From: a virus
Lineage: Duplodnaviria; Caudoviricetes
Length of the DNA: 64,000 nt
Direction: 5' to 3' (one strand)
Virus record (IMG/VR): IMGVR_UViG_3300020045_007949
Span: 1-64,000 of that record
The stretch's first letter is position 1; each line of letters opens with the position of its first letter. The notes beneath the pieces are model-generated. The model was not told the origin of the DNA. It saw only the letters and a program-made list of their open reading frames with translations, and made no database searches. Shown here piece after piece: positions 1 through 33,915 of this stretch. The position numbers and the translations under genes are program-made.

Positions 1-566
1 ACGATTGGAGTCCAATATTGCTGTATGTCTTGAATTTGAGTAACGTGAATAATGTTTCTAAAGATAGATTCACGATTATTTGACATCATTTGAAGAAAAT
101 AACCTTCCTGTGAGTTCCTTAGAAAGATTGGAGTAGCCGTTAAGCCAACTTTTTTCTTAATCTTTAGGAATTTACAAGCCTCAGCGAGTTGGTTTCCATC
201 TCTCGAACCATATTGGATTTCGTCAGATATGATATTCTCAACCCCAATATCTTTAAACGATTCCAAATCAGACATAATAGACCCAATAGTCGCATAAGTA
301 ACTTGACCTACGTCTTTTCTCTTCAAAGAAGCAGAATAAATCGAAGCATCGAAGCCGTAACTCGTATATTTTTCGTAATTCTGCTTCAAAAGTTCCTTAT
401 TCGGTTGTAAACAGATAGTGGGAGTATTAAATAACTTCACCGTTTCAGCAATGATAATGGATTTTCCAGTAGCCACAGGGCTAACTACAATCCCATTATC
501 CATATCCGAATGTATGAAGTCATTTATATCTTTTACCGCTTGTACTTGATTTGGTCTAAGTATCAT
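1..566 (-). CDS. SF2 (DExD/H-like) helicase, partial; runs off window start
   Basis: Manual translation from ATG 566: MILRPNQVQAV..., Walker A PVATGKS, motif Ia PNKELLKQ, motif II DEIQ, motif III TAT; no stop before position 1, so absent from the ORF track. Confidence 0.88.
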   Translation of the reverse strand, partial: MILRPNQVQAVKDINDFIHSDMDNGIVVSPVATGKSIIIAETVKLFNTPTICLQPNKELLKQNYEKYTSYGFDASIYSASLKRKDVGQVTYATIGSIMSDLESFKDIGVENIISDEIQYGSRDGNQLAEACKFLKIKKKVGLTATPIFLRNSQEGYFLQMMSNNRESIFRNIIHVTQIQDIQQYWTPI

Positions 567-811
567 AAAACATTAAATTCTTCTTCTGTAAAAACAATGA
601 AATTATTGCCAATTTTCATTACATAGTCGGTAAAATTCACTTCTAAACTTCCGCCACTTTTTATGAATAAATACAATGTATTGCAACATCTATGAAATGA
701 ATTAGCATTAACAAAAATTGTCAAATCTGATATATCTTGTGTGTATTTGAGATGAAAGAACTCAAATGGTACACTTTTAATTATTGTTCTCATTTTATTT
801 CCAAAAATCAT
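563..811 (-). CDS. hypothetical protein
   Basis: ORF track; overlaps helicase start by 4 nt. Confidence 0.7.
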   Translation of the reverse strand: MIFGNKMRTIIKSVPFEFFHLKYTQDISDLTIFVNANSFHRCCNTLYLFIKSGGSLEVNFTDYVMKIGNNFIVFTEEEFNVL

Positions 812-986
812 ATTCCTCGTTTAAAATAATCCAAATTATTCCAAACCAACTGCACGCTGACATGAATATTACTGCAAATTTGCCTGAGTTATCTAAAAAA
901 TGCTTTTCCATTTCGTTTGCTTGAATCTTAATTATACAAGCAATAAATGTTACTAATACGCCACTTAAATAAATCCAAGTCATCAT
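795..986 (-). CDS. small membrane protein (2 hydrophobic segments)
   Basis: ORF track; hydrophobic stretches; tight gene packing. Confidence 0.7.
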   Translation of the reverse strand: MMTWIYLSGVLVTFIACIIKIQANEMEKHFLDNSGKFAVIFMSACSWFGIIWIILNEEYDFWK

Positions 987-1438
987 AGCTCAGTATTTAA
1001 AGATTCCTTTTCAAATTCACTCTCTGATAAAACCTCCTTCATCTTAGATAAATAACTATTCATTATCTCATCTTGGCTTATACTGTGGTCGTTTTCTTTA
1101 TATTCTAAACCACCTCTTAAAATGTGGTCAAGTATTTCGGGTTTATTCCTCATCTTCAAAATCTGCTTTAATGTTGGTCTATACCAAACACCGTGAACAA
1201 TCAAATCAGGTGCTATGTCTTTGTAAAATGTACTTCTCGCCATGTTTCCACAAAACCTGCAAGTAAACATCATTGGCGTGACTCCTGCATCAATATCTTG
1301 TGTCTTAGTAATACGATTACATTTAGTGCAGTAATAACAGTTTATCCTATTTTCAAGGTCAATTTTGTAGAAATTATTTTTAGCAACATCTTTCAATAGA
1401 GCCTCATACTTTCTTACAACCTCTCTTTGACTTATCAT
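983..1438 (-). CDS. Zn-ribbon-containing protein
   Basis: CYYCTKC and CRFC motifs. Confidence 0.7.
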   Translation of the reverse strand: MISQREVVRKYEALLKDVAKNNFYKIDLENRINCYYCTKCNRITKTQDIDAGVTPMMFTCRFCGNMARSTFYKDIAPDLIVHGVWYRPTLKQILKMRNKPEILDHILRGGLEYKENDHSISQDEIMNSYLSKMKEVLSESEFEKESLNTEL

Positions 1439-1608
1439 TGTCTTCTCTTTTTAATTGTTTCAGCTACTTCTAAAATAAACTTATCAACTATATCAGGAGT
1501 CATAGACTCGGAATAATCAATCTTTGTTTTAAATGTGCCTTCTACATTCACTACTGTAAGAACTACATACGCATCTGCGTTACTCATTTTCTCTATTAGT
1601 GTTTCCAT
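1435..1608 (-). CDS. hypothetical protein (57 aa, not in ORF track)
   Basis: Manual translation METLIEKMSNADAY...KRRQ; ATGA overlap with next gene. Confidence 0.6.
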   Translation of the reverse strand: METLIEKMSNADAYVVLTVVNVEGTFKTKIDYSESMTPDIVDKFILEVAETIKKRRQ

Positions 1609-1887
1609 TTATTTCTTTTCGTTTGATTGCCATGCTTGGCGTTTTGAACCATCTTTTCTTGGAGTACCATCCTTTTTTAATTCAACTCCATAATAAACAC
1701 AACAAGGATTGTCAGAAAAATAAGACTTTATATTTTCAATAATTATAGAGCCAATATGGTCAGTAAATATATCGCCCACTTTGTATGGATTGTTAGAATT
1801 ACAATATGACGCTTTTAATAATCTGACATCATTATCAAATTGATTTCTTAGTACTATTATTTTGTTATCTAACTCATTCAGTGTCAT
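1609..1887 (-). CDS. hypothetical protein
   Basis: ORF track; operon packing. Confidence 0.7.
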   Translation of the reverse strand: MTLNELDNKIIVLRNQFDNDVRLLKASYCNSNNPYKVGDIFTDHIGSIIIENIKSYFSDNPCCVYYGVELKKDGTPRKDGSKRQAWQSNEKK

Positions 1888-4100: not shown

Positions 4101-4298
4101 CTATATCCTGTCAGCCTTCTTGTATGATTTACCAAACACCTCTATATGATTATATTGAAACGTTTTCCAATCCATAATTCCGAAATTATCAGTTGAACGA
4201 CCACCATTAATAAAAGTATATGTCTGAAATTGTGGCACAAAGAGTTTCTTGATTTCTTTTTTAGAGAAACCTTTCTTTGCCAACATACTTTTACTCAA
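4101..4298 (-). CDS. hypothetical basic protein
   Basis: ORF track. Confidence 0.6.
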   Translation of the reverse strand: MSKSMLAKKGFSKKEIKKLFVPQFQTYTFINGGRSTDNFGIMDWKTFQYNHIEVFGKSYKKADRI

Positions 4299-6153: not shown

Positions 6154-6339
6154 CTAAACTACAATTCCATACTTAAAAAGAATATTCTTAATTATCTCAG
6201 AGTTTTTTCGGAAATGCTTACAACCATTATTCTTGATGCAATTATGTATGGAATAACTTGGCATTAAACACTCTCGCTCTAATTGAGAAATATTTATTAG
6301 ATATTTTCTCTCTTTCAGCTTCTCAATTAATTCATCCAT
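6154..6339 (-). CDS. small protein, possible HTH regulator
   Basis: INISQLERECLMPSYSIHNCIK HTH-like pattern. Confidence 0.55.
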   Translation of the reverse strand: MDELIEKLKERKYLINISQLERECLMPSYSIHNCIKNNGCKHFRKNSEIIKNILFKYGIVV

Positions 6340-15715: not shown

Positions 15716-17608
15716 ATGAAAAAATATATGCTTGAACTTGTGAAAAACAAGGCTTTAAAAATAGTTTATTTATTATTCTTCTCAATAGGAGTTTTTGCTC
15801 AGAAAACAGATATTTTAACAGCAGATTCAACAGGAAATGTTTTTGTAGTTTTTCAAAAAAACGATTCAGTTGCAGTTGTTTTTCGTGGAAAACACACCGC
15901 ATTTACTACTGACCAAATATTCGCCAAGAATCTAAGTGCTTTTGATTTAAAGTTTGAGGGGTTTTCTAAGTTTAAGGTCAAGAAAAATGAGAGCGATTTA
16001 GGAGAGATTATTTATCCTCCTGATATTATTACACCTCCTGACACCACTAATCCACCAAGCGAGGAAACTGTCGCATTTCCAATTGAAGTCAATTATTCTA
16101 ACCCACGTTATTGGATAGAGTCATATACTTGGTCAAAAGTTCCTTCAAGTAAGAATATTATCAAAGGAATGAATGGTTACGACTTCGCACCAATAGTATC
16201 TAATCAAAACAGCAAGTACGAATACGGTGAGTGGAATCAACAATACATTTCGATTGGTCAGAAAGATACTTGGAATGACAATGGAAAGTATTTCTTAAAA
16301 CCAAAAGGATATAAAACTGATACTAAAACACATTTGTGGGATTTTGACTTAAAATTCCCCGATTTCTCCCTTCCTAAAGGCAAGATTGTAGTTATTCAAG
16401 CTACACCTAAAAGAGAGATTGGAGTGCATAATTACCTTAAAAAAGGTGTAAGCTATGTAAAGGATAAACAAGGGTCACAAGGCTATACTTTCGTTTCCGA
16501 TGGATGGCTAATTGACTTAGGTTGCCCTCCTGCTTACGATAGCCGACCAAATGCTAAGGAAATCTTTGATAATTGGTGTTCGGAAGTTGATGGAGATAAA
16601 TTACTACAATCCTTTATTAATAACGTTTACTACCCAAATAGATATAATGGCTACGTTATGTTGAATTGGGAACACGTAGGTCACAAGTGGAATGTAAGAA
16701 ATGATAAAATCATGCGATGCTTAGAATACTGGCAAGCACATGAACACACCGCTAAAATGGCATTATGGACTGTTTCGGGAGTTTCTATGGGAAAGCCAGT
16801 CTTTCAAGGTTTAGGTATAGATTTTTCAGATGCACTTAACTTTAATGGAACTATCGAAGAGTTTAGAAATAAATTTGGAAATAATATTACAGTCGATGAC
16901 TCATACTCAAAATATGTAGAAATTAGTCAAGTTGGTGGCTACATGAATTATCCAATCGACGATGGAGTTGTTCACCACTATCTATTTGAATACCTTCTTA
17001 ACAAGAAATTTTACCCAAACAAACAAGTATTAGTTACAGCTTGGTTTGACCAAGAATTAATTAACACCTTTGATTTAGGCAGGGTAAAGGTAGAAAGCGT
17101 TGATGGAACTTATTTTGCACAAGTAAAGCCCAAAACATTCCCAAGCATTACTTTTAATTGGGGTGTTTGGTCAATGCTTGGAGATGGAATAGATTTATGG
17201 TCAGACCCGAATTATTGGACAGATGATAAAAGATATTGGGGTTGGGGTGCAGTTGATATAAACGGAAAAGAGCTTGCAATGAAACACGACGAAGTAGGTG
17301 CTAAATATCCTTCACAAAGCATGAAATCCATTGATTGGTTAATGGCAGGAGTTTGGTCAATGAGTGAGAACAAAGATATTATCGAATATAGTTCTGAGTG
17401 GAAATTTATAACTCTTCCTACAAAATCATATCACGAAAAATCAGTTTTAATAGCTTACAAGATTAAGGGAAACGAAGTTTTAGTTCTTGGATTTGATGGA
17501 TTCTGCAATCCTGATGAAGTAAAAGAACATAAATTCGATATTAATGGAAAAGGATATAAAATTAAAACACACGGTAGATTTACAAGTGTTATGAGAATGA
17601 ATTTATGA
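15716..17608 (+). CDS. 630-aa protein with signal peptide, possibly glycoside-hydrolase-like
   Basis: N-terminal IVYLLFFSIGVFAQ; Pro/Thr linker; aromatic-rich C-terminal domain (YVMLNWEH). Confidence 0.5.
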   Translation: MKKYMLELVKNKALKIVYLLFFSIGVFAQKTDILTADSTGNVFVVFQKNDSVAVVFRGKHTAFTTDQIFAKNLSAFDLKFEGFSKFKVKKNESDLGEIIYPPDIITPPDTTNPPSEETVAFPIEVNYSNPRYWIESYTWSKVPSSKNIIKGMNGYDFAPIVSNQNSKYEYGEWNQQYISIGQKDTWNDNGKYFLKPKGYKTDTKTHLWDFDLKFPDFSLPKGKIVVIQATPKREIGVHNYLKKGVSYVKDKQGSQGYTFVSDGWLIDLGCPPAYDSRPNAKEIFDNWCSEVDGDKLLQSFINNVYYPNRYNGYVMLNWEHVGHKWNVRNDKIMRCLEYWQAHEHTAKMALWTVSGVSMGKPVFQGLGIDFSDALNFNGTIEEFRNKFGNNITVDDSYSKYVEISQVGGYMNYPIDDGVVHHYLFEYLLNKKFYPNKQVLVTAWFDQELINTFDLGRVKVESVDGTYFAQVKPKTFPSITFNWGVWSMLGDGIDLWSDPNYWTDDKRYWGWGAVDINGKELAMKHDEVGAKYPSQSMKSIDWLMAGVWSMSENKDIIEYSSEWKFITLPTKSYHEKSVLIAYKIKGNEVLVLGFDGFCNPDEVKEHKFDINGKGYKIKTHGRFTSVMRMNL

Positions 17609-18060
17609 AAATAAGTAAACAAGGGTTAGATTTAATAAAGGGATTTGAGTCTTTCGTTCCTAATCCGTACACAGACGCTGTGGGATTGCTAACTATCGGG
17701 TATGGTTCTACATATTATCCCAATGGGAGTAGGGTAAAAATGACAGATGAGTCTATTACTGAGCAAGAAGCAAGTAGGATGCTTTTTGTAGTTTTTGAAA
17801 ATGATTTTGCTGATTATATTCCGAATAATGTAAATCAGAATCAATTCGATGCACTTGGTTCTTTAATCTATAATATTGGTGCAAGTGCTTTTCTCAAAAG
17901 TACACTATATCGAAAAGTTTCAAAGAACCCAAATGACAAGTCGATTGAGCAAGAGTTTCTTAAATGGAATAAAGGTAGGGTAAGTGGGAAGTTAATTGAA
18001 CTAAAAGGATTAACCAACAGGAGAAAAAAAGAAGTTGAACTGTATTTTAAACCAGTATAA
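17605..18060 (+). CDS. endolysin, GH24 (T4/P21-like lysozyme)
   Basis: IKGFES...PYTDAVGLLTIGYGST catalytic E/D/T; LKGLTNRRKKE. Confidence 0.92.
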   Translation: MKISKQGLDLIKGFESFVPNPYTDAVGLLTIGYGSTYYPNGSRVKMTDESITEQEASRMLFVVFENDFADYIPNNVNQNQFDALGSLIYNIGASAFLKSTLYRKVSKNPNDKSIEQEFLKWNKGRVSGKLIELKGLTNRRKKEVELYFKPV

Positions 18061-24982: not shown

Positions 24983-26061
24983 TAACTTTTGGAGTAAAAC
25001 AAGTAGGATTTAGTTCCGATATTAACGACCCATTGTACCTAAAGCCAATAAATATAGCTTTGGGAGAATGGTGGTCACTTGCTGTTCCAAAATCAGCATT
25101 ACCATCTTGTAAATTAAAATTAGCAGTTGTTAAGAATATTGGGTCAATAAGTGACGCTGATTGTAATTGCGGAGTAGAGATTAATAAAATAATTGACAAA
25201 AGTTGTTTGTATCAAATACCGAACGATGATACCTCTTATCTTAATCTAACCATTTTAGACAAGGAAATCATTCCTGCGTTTAACATAATCGTTGGAGAAG
25301 TTGAGATTCTTGAATTTGAAGGAGGAACAATTGATGATTTAATCCTCTTAATCAACGGGATGAATCTCGGAGTTGACGAATTGGGATATGGAATAAGGAT
25401 TTACTTCGATAAGAAATATAATGGCTCAACAGCGACTATTCAAGGAGCAGAGGAAGCGGTAAAGGAAGTTTATTTACTAAACGATAAATTCTGCTTCCTC
25501 TGCTCCAAATATGTAGGGATTAGTTTCTCGTTCTGCGAAATTGGTTGCCATAGACTCGCTTTCATTAACAATGATGGATGTATAGTTGCTTTTGCCAATC
25601 AATTTAACGTAGTCAAAAAAGCACCAAAAAATGAGAAAATAATCGAATATTACGCAAACGGATTTTATCATAGACATCGCTTATTCTTAGAATTAAAAAC
25701 CGCTACGTACTTGAATGAGGAAGAACAGAAGACTCTTTCTACTGGTGATATTTCTATTCTTAATGTGATTATTCGCACACAAAGAGAATTTTATACAGGA
25801 CTTTTAAATCACAAGCAACATCTCGAACTCCTTTCAGTATTCAAGAAGGAGTTTAAGATTGACGGTAAAAAGGCTTTAATGTTGGGGAGTTATAATAATG
25901 ACTCAGAAGGGTTCGGAAGAAAAAGCATCGGAAATGGAACTTTGAACTTCAAGGAAGAAACTTACAAGAACATTGACGCTTGCTCGACTGGTTGCGAAAG
26001 TGGGTCGATATTTATATATGAAATATATGAGACAGAAAAAGTACAAACTATTTTGCAATAA
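24979..26061 (+). CDS. tail tip/distal tail-like protein
   Basis: ATGA overlap; position. Confidence 0.55.
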   Translation: MITFGVKQVGFSSDINDPLYLKPINIALGEWWSLAVPKSALPSCKLKLAVVKNIGSISDADCNCGVEINKIIDKSCLYQIPNDDTSYLNLTILDKEIIPAFNIIVGEVEILEFEGGTIDDLILLINGMNLGVDELGYGIRIYFDKKYNGSTATIQGAEEAVKEVYLLNDKFCFLCSKYVGISFSFCEIGCHRLAFINNDGCIVAFANQFNVVKKAPKNEKIIEYYANGFYHRHRLFLELKTATYLNEEEQKTLSTGDISILNVIIRTQREFYTGLLNHKQHLELLSVFKKEFKIDGKKALMLGSYNNDSEGFGRKSIGNGTLNFKEETYKNIDACSTGCESGSIFIYEIYETEKVQTILQ

Positions 26062-26082
26062 TAAATAATTGTGTTATATTTG
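26052..26082 (+). promoter_or_regulatory. Bacteroidota consensus promoter
   Basis: TTTG-N19-TATATTTG; predicted +1 near 26087. Confidence 0.75.
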
Positions 26083-26086
26083 TCTT

Positions 26087-26159
26087 TCCAACCGAAAGTA
26101 AAATAATGAATGAGTAGTGAGAAACGAACAGCCATCTTTTACTTTTTACGTTAGTTGGA
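26087..26159 (+). ncRNA. structured RNA element A (homolog of B)
   Basis: TCCAAC/GTTGGA plus AAAGTAAAA/TTTTACTTT nested stems. Confidence 0.55.
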
Positions 26160-26267
26160 GATTCAGAACGATCCAAACACCGCTTTCACGAAGTCGCCAG
26201 TTATGAATAAGGACTAATTAAAAAATAAAACTATAAACATAGCGGCTTATAATTATGGTATGAAACT

Positions 26268-26468
26268 ATGAAAAAGAAATTCGACCAAACTTTTGAAAAA
26301 GGAGCAGTATATGACGACGATATAATGCAAATAATTAGAGAAATTAACCATATTTCACACAAGCCGACCGAAGAAGAAAAAGGCATTGTTGCAGGAGATG
26401 TGGGGGAACTTTCTTATTATACTATTTTGAGAAAGAAAATAAGGTTAGTATTATATGTCGAAGAATAA
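26268..26468 (+). CDS. hypothetical protein (66 aa)
   Basis: ORF track; own promoter and terminator. Confidence 0.65.
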   Translation: MKKKFDQTFEKGAVYDDDIMQIIREINHISHKPTEEEKGIVAGDVGELSYYTILRKKIRLVLYVEE

Positions 26469-26471
26469 ATT

Positions 26472-26536
26472 TCCAACCAAAAGGATTGCGATAATTTGAG
26501 GCGAAGCCGAAGACATTTCGTAATCCGAAAGTTGGA
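26472..26536 (+). ncRNA. structured RNA element B (homolog of A)
   Basis: TCCAAC/GTTGGA plus GGATTGCGA/TCGTAATCC, apical GGC-GAA-GCC. Confidence 0.6.
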
Positions 26537-26548
26537 CTCACTGATATT

Positions 26549-26585
26549 AAAATCCCTTCAATTTATGACGATTGAAGGGATTTTT
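26549..26585 (+). terminator. intrinsic terminator
   Basis: AAAATCCCTTCAAT/ATTGAAGGGATTTT plus T. Confidence 0.85.
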
Positions 26586-26601
26586 GCGTTTTATTGATAA
26601 C

Positions 26602-29486: not shown

Positions 29487-30158
29487 ATGCAAACTAATTG
29501 CGATATATTTGAGTGTAAAGAGGATATAAATTCATTAAATTATTGTTCGGATGGATTTATTGTAGATTTGTCGCCATTCAATAATGAAGAAGTATTTTGT
29601 TACATAAAAGTTGCTGGCAGAGAATATTGCCAATCAGTTACCGTAACTGATAATTTGGCTACAATCAACTGGAAACCAAGCGAATACCTTGCAAAAGGAA
29701 CTTATCATGCTGAAATAACTTTCAAAGATTCTGAGAAAGAAAAGATTCAAGTAACGGCAAATGATTGCCAATTATATTGCGGATTTGATGTATGGATTAC
29801 AACAACTTGTGAAAGTGGTTATAAATACTTGAATGAGAAATGTGGCGTAAATCTACCAACAATTGACTCGCCTACGTCTTTAGTTTGCAACTGGATATTA
29901 TCAATAAAAACCTGTACTTGGACATTAACTTCAAATTCAATGATAACTGTTATATATAACGGAAAACAAATTAAATTAAATAGCAATCCAAAAGACGGTT
30001 CTTTTGTAAATGACGACTTCTTAGACGAATTAGACGCTATCGAGGATAACGCATTTCTTGTAAGTCTCGAAGGTGGCGATATTAATATTGAATATACAGG
30101 ATTATCTGATGTAGAAATCCTTGTAGGTTGTAATAAGGTAACTAAAACTTGTGAGTAA
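29487..30158 (+). CDS. Cys-rich putative virion protein
   Basis: ORF track; about 14 Cys in 223 aa. Confidence 0.55.
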   Translation: MQTNCDIFECKEDINSLNYCSDGFIVDLSPFNNEEVFCYIKVAGREYCQSVTVTDNLATINWKPSEYLAKGTYHAEITFKDSEKEKIQVTANDCQLYCGFDVWITTTCESGYKYLNEKCGVNLPTIDSPTSLVCNWILSIKTCTWTLTSNSMITVIYNGKQIKLNSNPKDGSFVNDDFLDELDAIEDNAFLVSLEGGDINIEYTGLSDVEILVGCNKVTKTCE

Positions 30159-33135: not shown

Positions 33136-33411
33136 ATGTATAAATTAACTGATTCACTTGGCAATGTAGTTTTCAATTCAAATTACGAATTGAGTAATGA
33201 AAATATTTCCGTTAATGATAATGAGAGGTATGTTTTTACTATTTGTAACAATAAGAATTGTGGAGATATTACAGTTGAATTATTCTTGAATGGAAAATTA
33301 TGTAAATCAGTCGAGATTTTAGACGGAAAAACTGGCTCAATTCCTTTTAAAACAGGCATTGCAGATTCGATTACTGTTAGACAATATCCAAAATATACTA
33401 TACCAGCCTAA
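33136..33411 (+). CDS. hypothetical structural-module protein
   Basis: ORF track. Confidence 0.6.
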   Translation: MYKLTDSLGNVVFNSNYELSNENISVNDNERYVFTICNNKNCGDITVELFLNGKLCKSVEILDGKTGSIPFKTGIADSITVRQYPKYTIPA

Positions 33412-33426
33412 CTAAATTGTTTCACA

Positions 33427-33915
33427 ATGTTCACAGCCGACTTATCAGGTTTAAATCGCCTTATTGCACAATTAGAGCAACGTAAATTAGACTACCAAGT
33501 TGCGTTGGATGATGCAGTAGATTTGGCAAGAACAACCATTCTAAACAGGGTGAAATTAGGTCAATTAGTTGATGGCGGATACAGAGTTAGTAATAATCCA
33601 TATCAAGGTAGTAGATACTCAGAGAGACAATTTAGGTTTAGAAGAAAAAGAAGTTTGCCTACATCTGCTCATACATTATACGTCACTGGCGATTTATTTA
33701 ACAACTTTGTAGTAGATAAGAGAATCCCTGTCGCAAGTACGAGTAATCTATTTATCAGAACACTTGGATTTACCAATAGAAATGTAAGAGGAAAGCAAAT
33801 CACTTACGCAGAATTGGCAAGAATACAGGAAAATAAAACAGGAATAGGTTTTCAATTAAGCCCTTCTCAATTAATAAGAGTGATGGCAAGATTTAAACAA
33901 GTAGCAAGGCTGTAA
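33427..33915 (+). CDS. putative neck/tail completion protein
   Basis: Basic, Arg-rich; position before terminator/chaperone/tape measure. Confidence 0.55.
   Translation: MFTADLSGLNRLIAQLEQRKLDYQVALDDAVDLARTTILNRVKLGQLVDGGYRVSNNPYQGSRYSERQFRFRRKRSLPTSAHTLYVTGDLFNNFVVDKRIPVASTSNLFIRTLGFTNRNVRGKQITYAELARIQENKTGIGFQLSPSQLIRVMARFKQVARL

What the first reader, a model, noticed from the sequence alone, without database searches (positions are those of the whole stretch)
26087..26585. Two homologous structured RNA elements with compensatory changes bracket a 66-aa ORF in a self-contained transcript
Seen: A (26087-26159) starts at the predicted +1 and B (26472-26536) lies between the stop codon and a strong terminator. 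Both read TT-TCCAAC-[2-5 nt]-9-bp stem-TAAT..TGAG-[hairpin]-CGAA..CAT-9-bp stem-[4-8 nt]-GTTGGA. The 9-bp stems differ completely in sequence (AAAGTAAAA/TTTTACTTT vs GGATTGCGA/TCGTAATCC) yet both pair, while the junction words TAAT, TGAG, CGAA and CAT are kept. The GAG...CGAA part resembles the hammerhead G8-A9/G12-A13-A14 face, but the CUGANGA core is absent. Inference: an undescribed RNA motif (ribozyme variant, protein-binding site or RNA antitoxin); the unit resembles a type III-like RNA/protein module or a processed or circularised mini-mRNA.
Basis: partly seen in the sequence, partly recalled or inferred. Interest (0 to 1): 0.7.

Follow-up and report, generated by a model that had tools for sequence, protein, structure and literature searches.

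The report
Integron-like cassette sites in a phage
The two look-alike hairpins are copies of a recombination-site repeat that marks the edges of movable gene cassettes in huge arrays in Emticicia bacteria and in their phages, so the 66-codon gene is probably a captured cassette and not part of a new ribozyme or RNA antitoxin unit.

Summary
Observation confirmed. A (26085-26161) and B (26470-26538) are real and homologous. A covariance model built only from other phage contigs hits both (E 5e-9 and 2.6e-6) and nothing else in the window.

They belong to a family of more than 150 copies. Its features are an invariant TTCCAAC/GTTGGA outer stem, 5-nt unpaired spacers, a strongly covarying 8-bp inner stem, a conserved GATG..TTTAC internal loop and a variable tip.

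The family forms one-strand arrays: 9-17 copies in phage contigs and up to about 86 copies over 160 kb in Emticicia genomes. In Emticicia the arrays lie beside Xer/IntI-like tyrosine recombinase genes. Cassettes duplicated at 99-100% identity start and end exactly in the TTCCAAC box. The strand that folds is antisense to the bacterial cassette genes, so the conserved structure is DNA, not mRNA.

Best reading: attC-like recombination sites. A, its leader and ORF66 form one gene cassette, and B marks the next boundary. This resembles the attC clusters without an integrase (CALINs) already reported in phages.

The system is not a canonical integron. The recombinase lacks the IntI-specific domain, the inner stem shows no bulged base, and each cassette carries an extra conserved module. 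Phage cassettes carry their genes in the opposite orientation to bacterial ones.

No support for a ribozyme, a type III toxin-antitoxin or a circular mRNA. Not in Rfam.

The parts
26052..26082 (+). Bacteroidota-type promoter-like site (TTTG, 19 nt, TATATTTG) just upstream of A and outside the cassette
   Evidence: Read from the sequence; partly listed by the sigma-70 scan. The consensus is from my own knowledge. Not tested.
26085..26161 (+). Element A: attC-like hairpin site. Outer stem TTCCAAC 26086-26092 with GTTGGAG 26154-26160, inner stem, AATGA..TTTTAC loop
   Evidence: Model R1, built from other contigs, scores 45.4 bits, E 5e-9; fold; pattern
26160..26267 (+). Cassette leader module, with CGCTTTCACGAAGTCGCC (26181-26198) and AAAATAAAACTATAAAC (26222-26238)
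   Evidence: 80% identical over 60 nt to the module after an element in the complete phage G007. The same CGCT-N8-GTCGC motif follows nearly every element.
26268..26468 (+). ORF66, the cassette's cargo: an orphan 66-aa ORF
   Evidence: No Pfam or PHROG hit. Only itself among 5.8 billion clusters. No relative in the fetched arrays. Low-confidence Atlas model.
26470..26538 (+). Element B: second attC-like site, starting 1 nt after the ORF66 stop. Its tip contains GCGAAGC (26501-26507)
   Evidence: R1 scores 34.5 bits, E 2.6e-6; fold z -5.7
26549..26594 (+). Intrinsic-terminator-like hairpin with T run after B

Best explanation
A and B are two copies of an attC-like recombination site. One DNA strand folds into a hairpin that imitates a double-stranded core site: an invariant 7-bp box (TTCCAAC/GTTGGAA), an unpaired 5-nt spacer, a second 8-9-bp box of free sequence, and a conserved mismatched loop (GATG..TTTAC). 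A Xer/IntI-type tyrosine recombinase cuts and rejoins inside the TTCCAAC box. The unit between two boxes can then be excised, inserted or duplicated. That unit is the hairpin, a conserved leader or module, and a gene. In the window, the cassette is A + leader + ORF66, and B supplies the next boundary. The recombinase is not found in the 74-kb record (about 53% complete) and is presumably supplied by the host, probably an Emticicia-like Cytophagales bacterium. Shown: family membership, the structure, which strand folds, the arrays, the breakpoints of duplicated bacterial cassettes, and the neighbouring recombinases. Inferred: catalysis by that recombinase, activity in this phage, and expression of ORF66 from the upstream promoter.
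For: Model R1, built from 22 copies in two other phage contigs, hits A and B only. Across 149 distinct copies the inner stem is 95% paired and 7 of 8 pairs covary; the covariation score is 0.40 against 0.13 in shuffles, reached by 0 of 500. All frequent wobble pairs are G-U on one strand. Arrays on a single strand: 17 copies in G001, 8-9 in the complete phage G007 and 10-13 in G008, and 49-86 in the 160-kb Emticicia contig G005:C2 depending on method and threshold. G003 and G004 also hold arrays, and 11 of 27 Emticicia species genomes have hits. In each of three Emticicia genomes the best integron-integrase (TIGR02249) hit lies beside an array. Duplicated cassettes at 99-100% identity begin at TTCCAAC and diverge right after the next TTCCAAC. 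Bacterial cassette ORFs are real and antisense to the folding strand, including a SIR2_2-domain protein and a 1057-aa protein. Spirosoma has a 44%-identical recombinase followed by an array of homologous sites with canonical GCCCAAC..GTTGGGT boxes. attC clusters in virulent phages are documented (PMC9892861).
Against: No tyrosine recombinase in the 74-kb record. No recombination event was seen in any phage, and no related phage was available for an empty-site comparison. In phages the genes are sense to the folding strand, the reverse of the bacterial arrays, so an RNA role there cannot be excluded. The neighbouring recombinase lacks the IntI-specific domain and scores below the integron-integrase cut-off. 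No bulged base is seen in the inner stem of the Emticicia and phage copies. IntegronFinder and HattCI could not be run.
Confidence: 0.7

Rival explanations
1. In phages the hairpins act mainly in the mRNA, as 3'-end stabilisers, processing sites or weak terminators between small genes (like the RNase III sites of T7 or REP elements). They would do this instead of, or in addition to, recombination.
For: In all phage contigs the element is on the sense strand and starts 1-10 nt after a stop codon. The wobble pairs are G-U on that strand. The window unit has its own promoter and terminator. The leader after the element is conserved up to the start codon.
Against: The same strand folds in the bacterial arrays, where it is antisense to the genes. 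Breakpoints of duplicated cassettes sit in the outer box. The invariant outer-stem sequence fits protein recognition of a core site. The predicted transcription start would fall inside A's 5' outer-stem strand. No Rfam match.
Confidence: 0.18
2. Inert relics: the cassette was acquired once by recombination with another phage or a host array, and the two sites no longer do anything in this phage.
For: Only two copies in 74 kb and no recombinase. B is short and diverges from the family loop. ORF66 is an orphan.
Against: Both outer and inner stems are intact, and B folds very well with z -5.7. A's leader is still 80% identical to that of phage G007.
Confidence: 0.09
3. One reading: a new self-cleaving ribozyme pair, an RNA antitoxin of a type III-like module, or a processed or circularised mini-mRNA.
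For: Direct repeats of a structured element flank a small ORF. GAG..CGAA in A and B recalls part of the hammerhead core.
Against: No ribozyme model matches even at E up to 10. GAG..CGAA is not conserved across the family. There is no tandem repeat array before a toxin gene and no toxin-like domain. The family is explained by cassette arrays next to recombinases.
Confidence: 0.03

Closest known systems
[quoted passage not shown] 2023, PMC9892861; IntegronFinder, PMC4889954 and PMC9024848)
   Same: An imperfect hairpin on one strand, with an AAC/GTT outer box, an unpaired central spacer, a second box of free sequence and a variable tip. The sites stand between genes in one-strand arrays, cassette boundaries fall in the outer box, and there are two or more sites in a phage without an integrase.
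   Different: The partner recombinase lacks the IntI-specific domain. No bulged base is seen in the inner stem of the Emticicia and phage copies. A conserved GATG..TTTAC loop and an extra conserved module (about 345 nt in bacteria, 50-160 nt in phages) belong to each cassette. Phage cassettes carry the gene in the reverse orientation.
Sedentary chromosomal integrons such as the Vibrio cholerae array with its VCR repeats
   Same: Very large arrays (here about 86 sites in 160 kb) of genus-specific, mutually similar sites. Cargo is mostly of unknown function and includes a defence-type SIR2 domain. Cassettes are duplicated within arrays.
   Different: Bacteroidota host. The recombinase is co-directional with the cassettes in 4 of 5 loci examined and is of Xer type. 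Repeat units are longer.
Xer-dependent gene modules (pdif modules of Acinetobacter plasmids, PMC7399989)
   Same: Genes bounded by sites for a Xer-family recombinase.
   Different: Those sites are 28-bp double-stranded dif-like sites used by the housekeeping XerC/XerD. Here the sites are about 77-90-nt hairpins next to a dedicated recombinase.
PeSL mobile regulatory cassettes of T4-type phages (Arbiol et al. 2010, from memory)
   Same: Repeated stem-loop plus expression signals flanking small accessory ORFs in hyperplastic phage regions.
   Different: PeSLs are thought to shuffle by homologous recombination. They have no recombinase-type core box and no bacterial arrays. Not tested here.

Membership tests
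Integron attC site | Inverse core RYYYAAC and core GTTRRRY that pair as the R box | tested here: met
   TTCCAAC/GTTGGA(A/G/C): AAC/GTT invariant in 149 copies and 6 of 7 positions fit. Spirosoma relatives fit fully, GCCCAAC/GTTGGGT.
Integron attC site | Unpaired central spacer, then a second paired box conserved in structure but not in sequence, then a variable terminal structure | tested here: met
   Spacers of 5 and 4-6 nt. The inner stem covaries at 7 of 8 pairs. Tip length varies, giving totals of 65-92 nt.
Integron attC site | Extrahelical bases in the L box that set strand choice | tested here: inconclusive
   No bulge in the inner stem of the Emticicia and phage copies; instead a conserved A.A/T.T mismatch loop. 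The Spirosoma copies read as having one bulged G, by eye.
Integron attC site | The folding (bottom) strand is the complement of the cassette coding strand | tested here: inconclusive
   Met in Emticicia and Spirosoma arrays. Reversed in all phage contigs, including the window.
Integron attC site | Cassette boundary (crossover) inside the core site G|TT | tested here: met
   In 8 pairs of 99-100% identical cassettes, identity starts at TTCCAAC and ends right after the next TTCCAAC. The exact phosphate cannot be resolved.
Integron (complete) | Adjacent IntI integrase carrying the IntI-specific additional domain | tested here: not met
   Adjacent recombinases score 193-206 bits against a cut-off of 265 for TIGR02249. 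They have 18 aa where VchIntIA has 60. The nearest solved structures are XerA. No hit above the cut-off anywhere in three Emticicia genomes.
CALIN (attC cluster without integrase) in a phage | At least two attC sites close together with no integrase nearby, as called by IntegronFinder | not testable with these tools
   Two sites about 310 nt apart and no PF00589 gene in 74 kb. IntegronFinder's attC model was not available.
Hammerhead or other known self-cleaving ribozymes (Rfam) | Match to the family covariance model, with its conserved catalytic core | tested here: not met
   No hit on A or B at E up to 10. Nothing on the arrays at E up to 0.01.
Type III toxin-antitoxin (ToxIN-like) | Tandem short RNA repeats directly upstream of an endoribonuclease toxin gene | tested here: not met
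   Two non-tandem copies flank an orphan 66-aa ORF with no Pfam or PHROG match.

The most novel reading that the evidence does not exclude
Cytophagales bacteria (Emticicia, Spirosoma) and their phages share an undescribed integron-like cassette system. It would be run by a Xer-type recombinase that has no IntI domain but has an extra N-terminal region of about 110 aa. That region may bind the repeated GTCGC/GTCGACA motifs beside each hairpin as arm-type sites. Phages would keep their own arrays (up to 17 cassettes, one contig with its own recombinase) of reverse-oriented cassettes with self-contained leaders, and would use the system to swap small accessory genes with each other and with host arrays.
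Probability: 0.4. Interest if true: 0.85.

Novelty: new variant of a known kind. Interest (0 to 1): 0.66.

Why it matters
Integrons are a paradigm of bacterial gene capture, and they are defined by IntI and its special domain. Here a second solution appears: hairpin sites of the same design, served by a Xer-type enzyme without that domain. It is found in a phylum where integrons are reported as rare, and it forms arrays as large as the Vibrio superintegron. The same sites also organise the small-gene regions of phages. If the sites are active, phages and hosts draw on a common pool of cassettes. Some of those cassettes look like defence genes, for example a SIR2-domain protein. This would give a concrete, testable mechanism for the rapid turnover of phage accessory genes.

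Tried and rejected
- Rfam at gathering and permissive thresholds gave only tRNAs and noise.
- Loose DNA patterns in viral contigs returned mostly chance or coding matches. Some hits to the strict pattern were also chance: L301/L306 and relatives, the Bifidobacteriaceae and Anaerocolumna contigs, and G009/G010, which have no R1 hit.
- No relative of the window's phage was found by DNA or through the upstream 360-aa protein, so no empty-site comparison was possible.
- ORF66 has no homolog, family or usable fold.
- K-turn, box C/D and hammerhead readings of the GA-rich loop were considered by eye and dropped, because the required partner GA or CUGA is absent across the family.
- The integrase of phage G001 is unrelated to the array recombinase.
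- A search for cassette presence/absence differences between phage contigs found only overlapping copies of the same contigs.
- The earlier notes of this scan held nothing on this element.
- A literature search found no paper on Emticicia arrays or on Xer-type integron-like systems. The library is incomplete.

Full report
**The observation.**
- TCCAAC-N40-70-GTTGGA occurs twice in the window (26087-26159 and 26472-26536) against 0.06 expected.
- A looser descriptor over the whole 74-kb virus record finds only these two convincing copies.
- Both fold as nested hairpins, with z -2.7 for A and -5.7 for B.
- A Bacteroidota-style promoter (TTTG 26052-55, 19 nt, TATATTTG 26075-82) abuts A. A strong terminator (26549-26584) follows B.
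- Rfam has no match at either threshold.
- ORF66 (26268-26468) is an orphan.

**Homologs.**
- A pattern search in viral contigs turned up two contigs, G001 and G002. They carry many same-strand copies of a 72-80-nt element placed between small ORFs.
- An alignment of 22 of these copies gives an invariant 7-bp outer stem (TTCCAAC/GTTGGAA), 5-nt spacers, and an 8-bp inner stem in which 7 pairs covary.
- A covariance model built from these 22 copies only (R1) hits window A at 45.4 bits (E 5e-9) and B at 34.5 bits (E 2.6e-6). The only other hit in the window is a weak, probably chance one at 29579-29629. A and B are therefore members of this family.
- A strict pattern then recovered more viral, metagenomic and genomic loci, and R1 found 152 hits in them.
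- Over 149 distinct copies the inner stem is 95% paired. Covariation is far above shuffled and slid controls.
- The frequent wobble pairs are all G-U on one strand, so that strand is the one selected to fold.

**Context in bacteria.**
- The genomic hits are mainly in Emticicia.
- Whole-genome searches show one-strand arrays. G005:C2, a 160-kb contig, gave 74 R1 matches at E up to 0.001 and 86 by pattern. G004 has 30-40 across 55 kb plus a second contig. G003 has two arrays.
- 11 of 27 Emticicia species genomes have hits. None of 150 other sampled genomes of the order did, under stricter filters.
- In each of the three genomes the best match to the integron-integrase model lies beside an array.
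- These 383-390-aa proteins score 193-206 bits, below the cut-off of 265, and score about equally for XerA.
- Their nearest solved structures are XerA. Aligned to VchIntIA, they have 18 residues where IntI has the 60-residue stretch holding its specific domain. That domain is a defining trait of IntI (bioRxiv 10.1101/2022.02.06.479319).
- Public sources name these proteins only integrase, XerC or XerD.

**Cassettes.**
- Within and between Emticicia arrays, blocks of 0.8-1.9 kb recur at 99-100% identity in different places.
- In eight inspected pairs, identity begins at TTCCAAC of one element and ends immediately after TTCCAAC of the next.
- The mobile unit is therefore hairpin + a conserved non-coding module of about 345 nt + gene(s), with the crossover inside the outer box. 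This is the integron cassette logic.
- The bacterial genes are real, including a SIR2_2-domain protein and a 1057-aa protein. They lie antisense to the folding strand. The conserved fold therefore cannot be their mRNA; it corresponds to the bottom strand of an attC.
- Spirosoma aerolatum has a 44%-identical recombinase followed by co-directional small ORFs. Its homologous sites have boxes (GCCCAAC..GTTGGGT) that fit the canonical integron consensus, and it has the same loop words and module motif.

**Context in phages.**
- In G001 (17 copies), G002, G006, G007 (complete, terminal repeats, 8-9 copies), G008 (10-13 copies) and the window, the genes are sense to the folding strand.
- In these records the element starts 1-10 nt after a stop codon. 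A leader of 50-160 nt precedes the next start.
- Phage cassettes are thus hairpin + leader + forward gene.
- The window's leader carries CGCTTTCACGAAGTCGCC (26181-98) and AAAATAAAACTATAAAC (26222-38). It is homologous to leaders in G007 and G001, while the ORFs differ.
- Only G008 encodes a relative of the array recombinase, at 36% identity. The others, including the complete G007 and the window's record, do not.

**Interpretation.**
- The best-supported reading is that A and B are attC-like recombination sites. A + leader + ORF66 is one cassette bounded by the TTCCAAC boxes at 26086-92 and 26471-77.
- The recombinase would be host-supplied, and the host is probably Emticicia-like.
- Clusters of attC sites in virulent phages, including a Bacteroidota phage, have been shown to be functional with IntI1 (PMC9892861). 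A phage carrying such sites is therefore not new in kind.
- What differs here:
  - the Xer-type partner enzyme
  - the lack of an obvious bulged base
  - the conserved loop and the long module with repeated GTCGC motifs
  - the reversed gene orientation in phages
  - the size of the phage arrays
- Integrons are reported as rare in Bacteroidetes (PMC9024848). I found no paper on these arrays.
- From memory, GCGAAGC at B's tip (26501-07) is the unusually stable DNA mini-hairpin. That would fit a DNA fold, but it is anecdotal.

**Limits.**
- No recombination event was observed in a phage.
- No relative of this phage was available.
- IntegronFinder could not be run.
- An added or alternative RNA role in phages, where the hairpin is in the mRNA, remains open.

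Noticed in passing
window 26181-26198; L182, L366, L380, L381 and L383, after each element: A motif CGCT-N7-9-(R)TGTCGC sits 20-38 nt after almost every element. It occurs about four times per bacterial cassette module. It recurs in Spirosoma as GGTCGACA-N8-AACG on the gene strand. It could be arm-type binding sites for the recombinase's extra N-terminal region, or a promoter. Function unknown.
   Followed up: partly
window 26222-26238; L380:2880-2960 and 6290-6300; L182:3250-3260 and 4190-4200: The leader word AAAATAAAACTATAAAC lies 30-45 nt before the start codon. It is shared by cassettes of three otherwise different phages and is not enriched elsewhere in the window.
   Followed up: partly
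window 1-1616 and 1882-2766; G000 69520-74012 (beyond the window): The left end of the record is repeated at 83-88% identity near the right end (70854-72002). There are also inverted copies (72181-72550 against 73336-73706, and 1500-1614 against 73898-74012). This may be a duplicated gene family or a terminal structure.
   Followed up: no
G008 = IMGVR_UViG_3300033076_001279, L381:876-8842: A contig classed as viral carries a 10-13-site array with forward genes. Convergent to it is a 301-aa homolog (36% identity) of the Emticicia array recombinase. This may be a complete phage-borne system.
   Followed up: partly
L383 (Spirosoma aerolatum CP020104, 4920974-4942149): A recombinase is followed by about 8 small unknown ORFs, separated by repeats of about 135 nt or more. 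The repeats have canonical RYYYAAC/GTTRRRY boxes and, as read by eye, a bulged G.
   Followed up: partly
L365:11801-12820 (-), Emticicia sp. SJ17W-69 array: One cassette encodes a SIR2_2-domain protein, a domain common in anti-phage defence. Most other cassette ORFs have no Pfam match.
   Followed up: no
window 29579-29629 (+): Weak R1 hit (11.6 bits, E 1.2) to the inner part of the model only, without an outer stem, next to a TTTGTCGCC word. Probably chance.
   Followed up: partly
window 17605-17975 and G001 33337-33707: A 381-bp stretch is 70% identical between the window's phage and G001, which suggests a shared conserved phage gene and a distant relationship.
   Followed up: no
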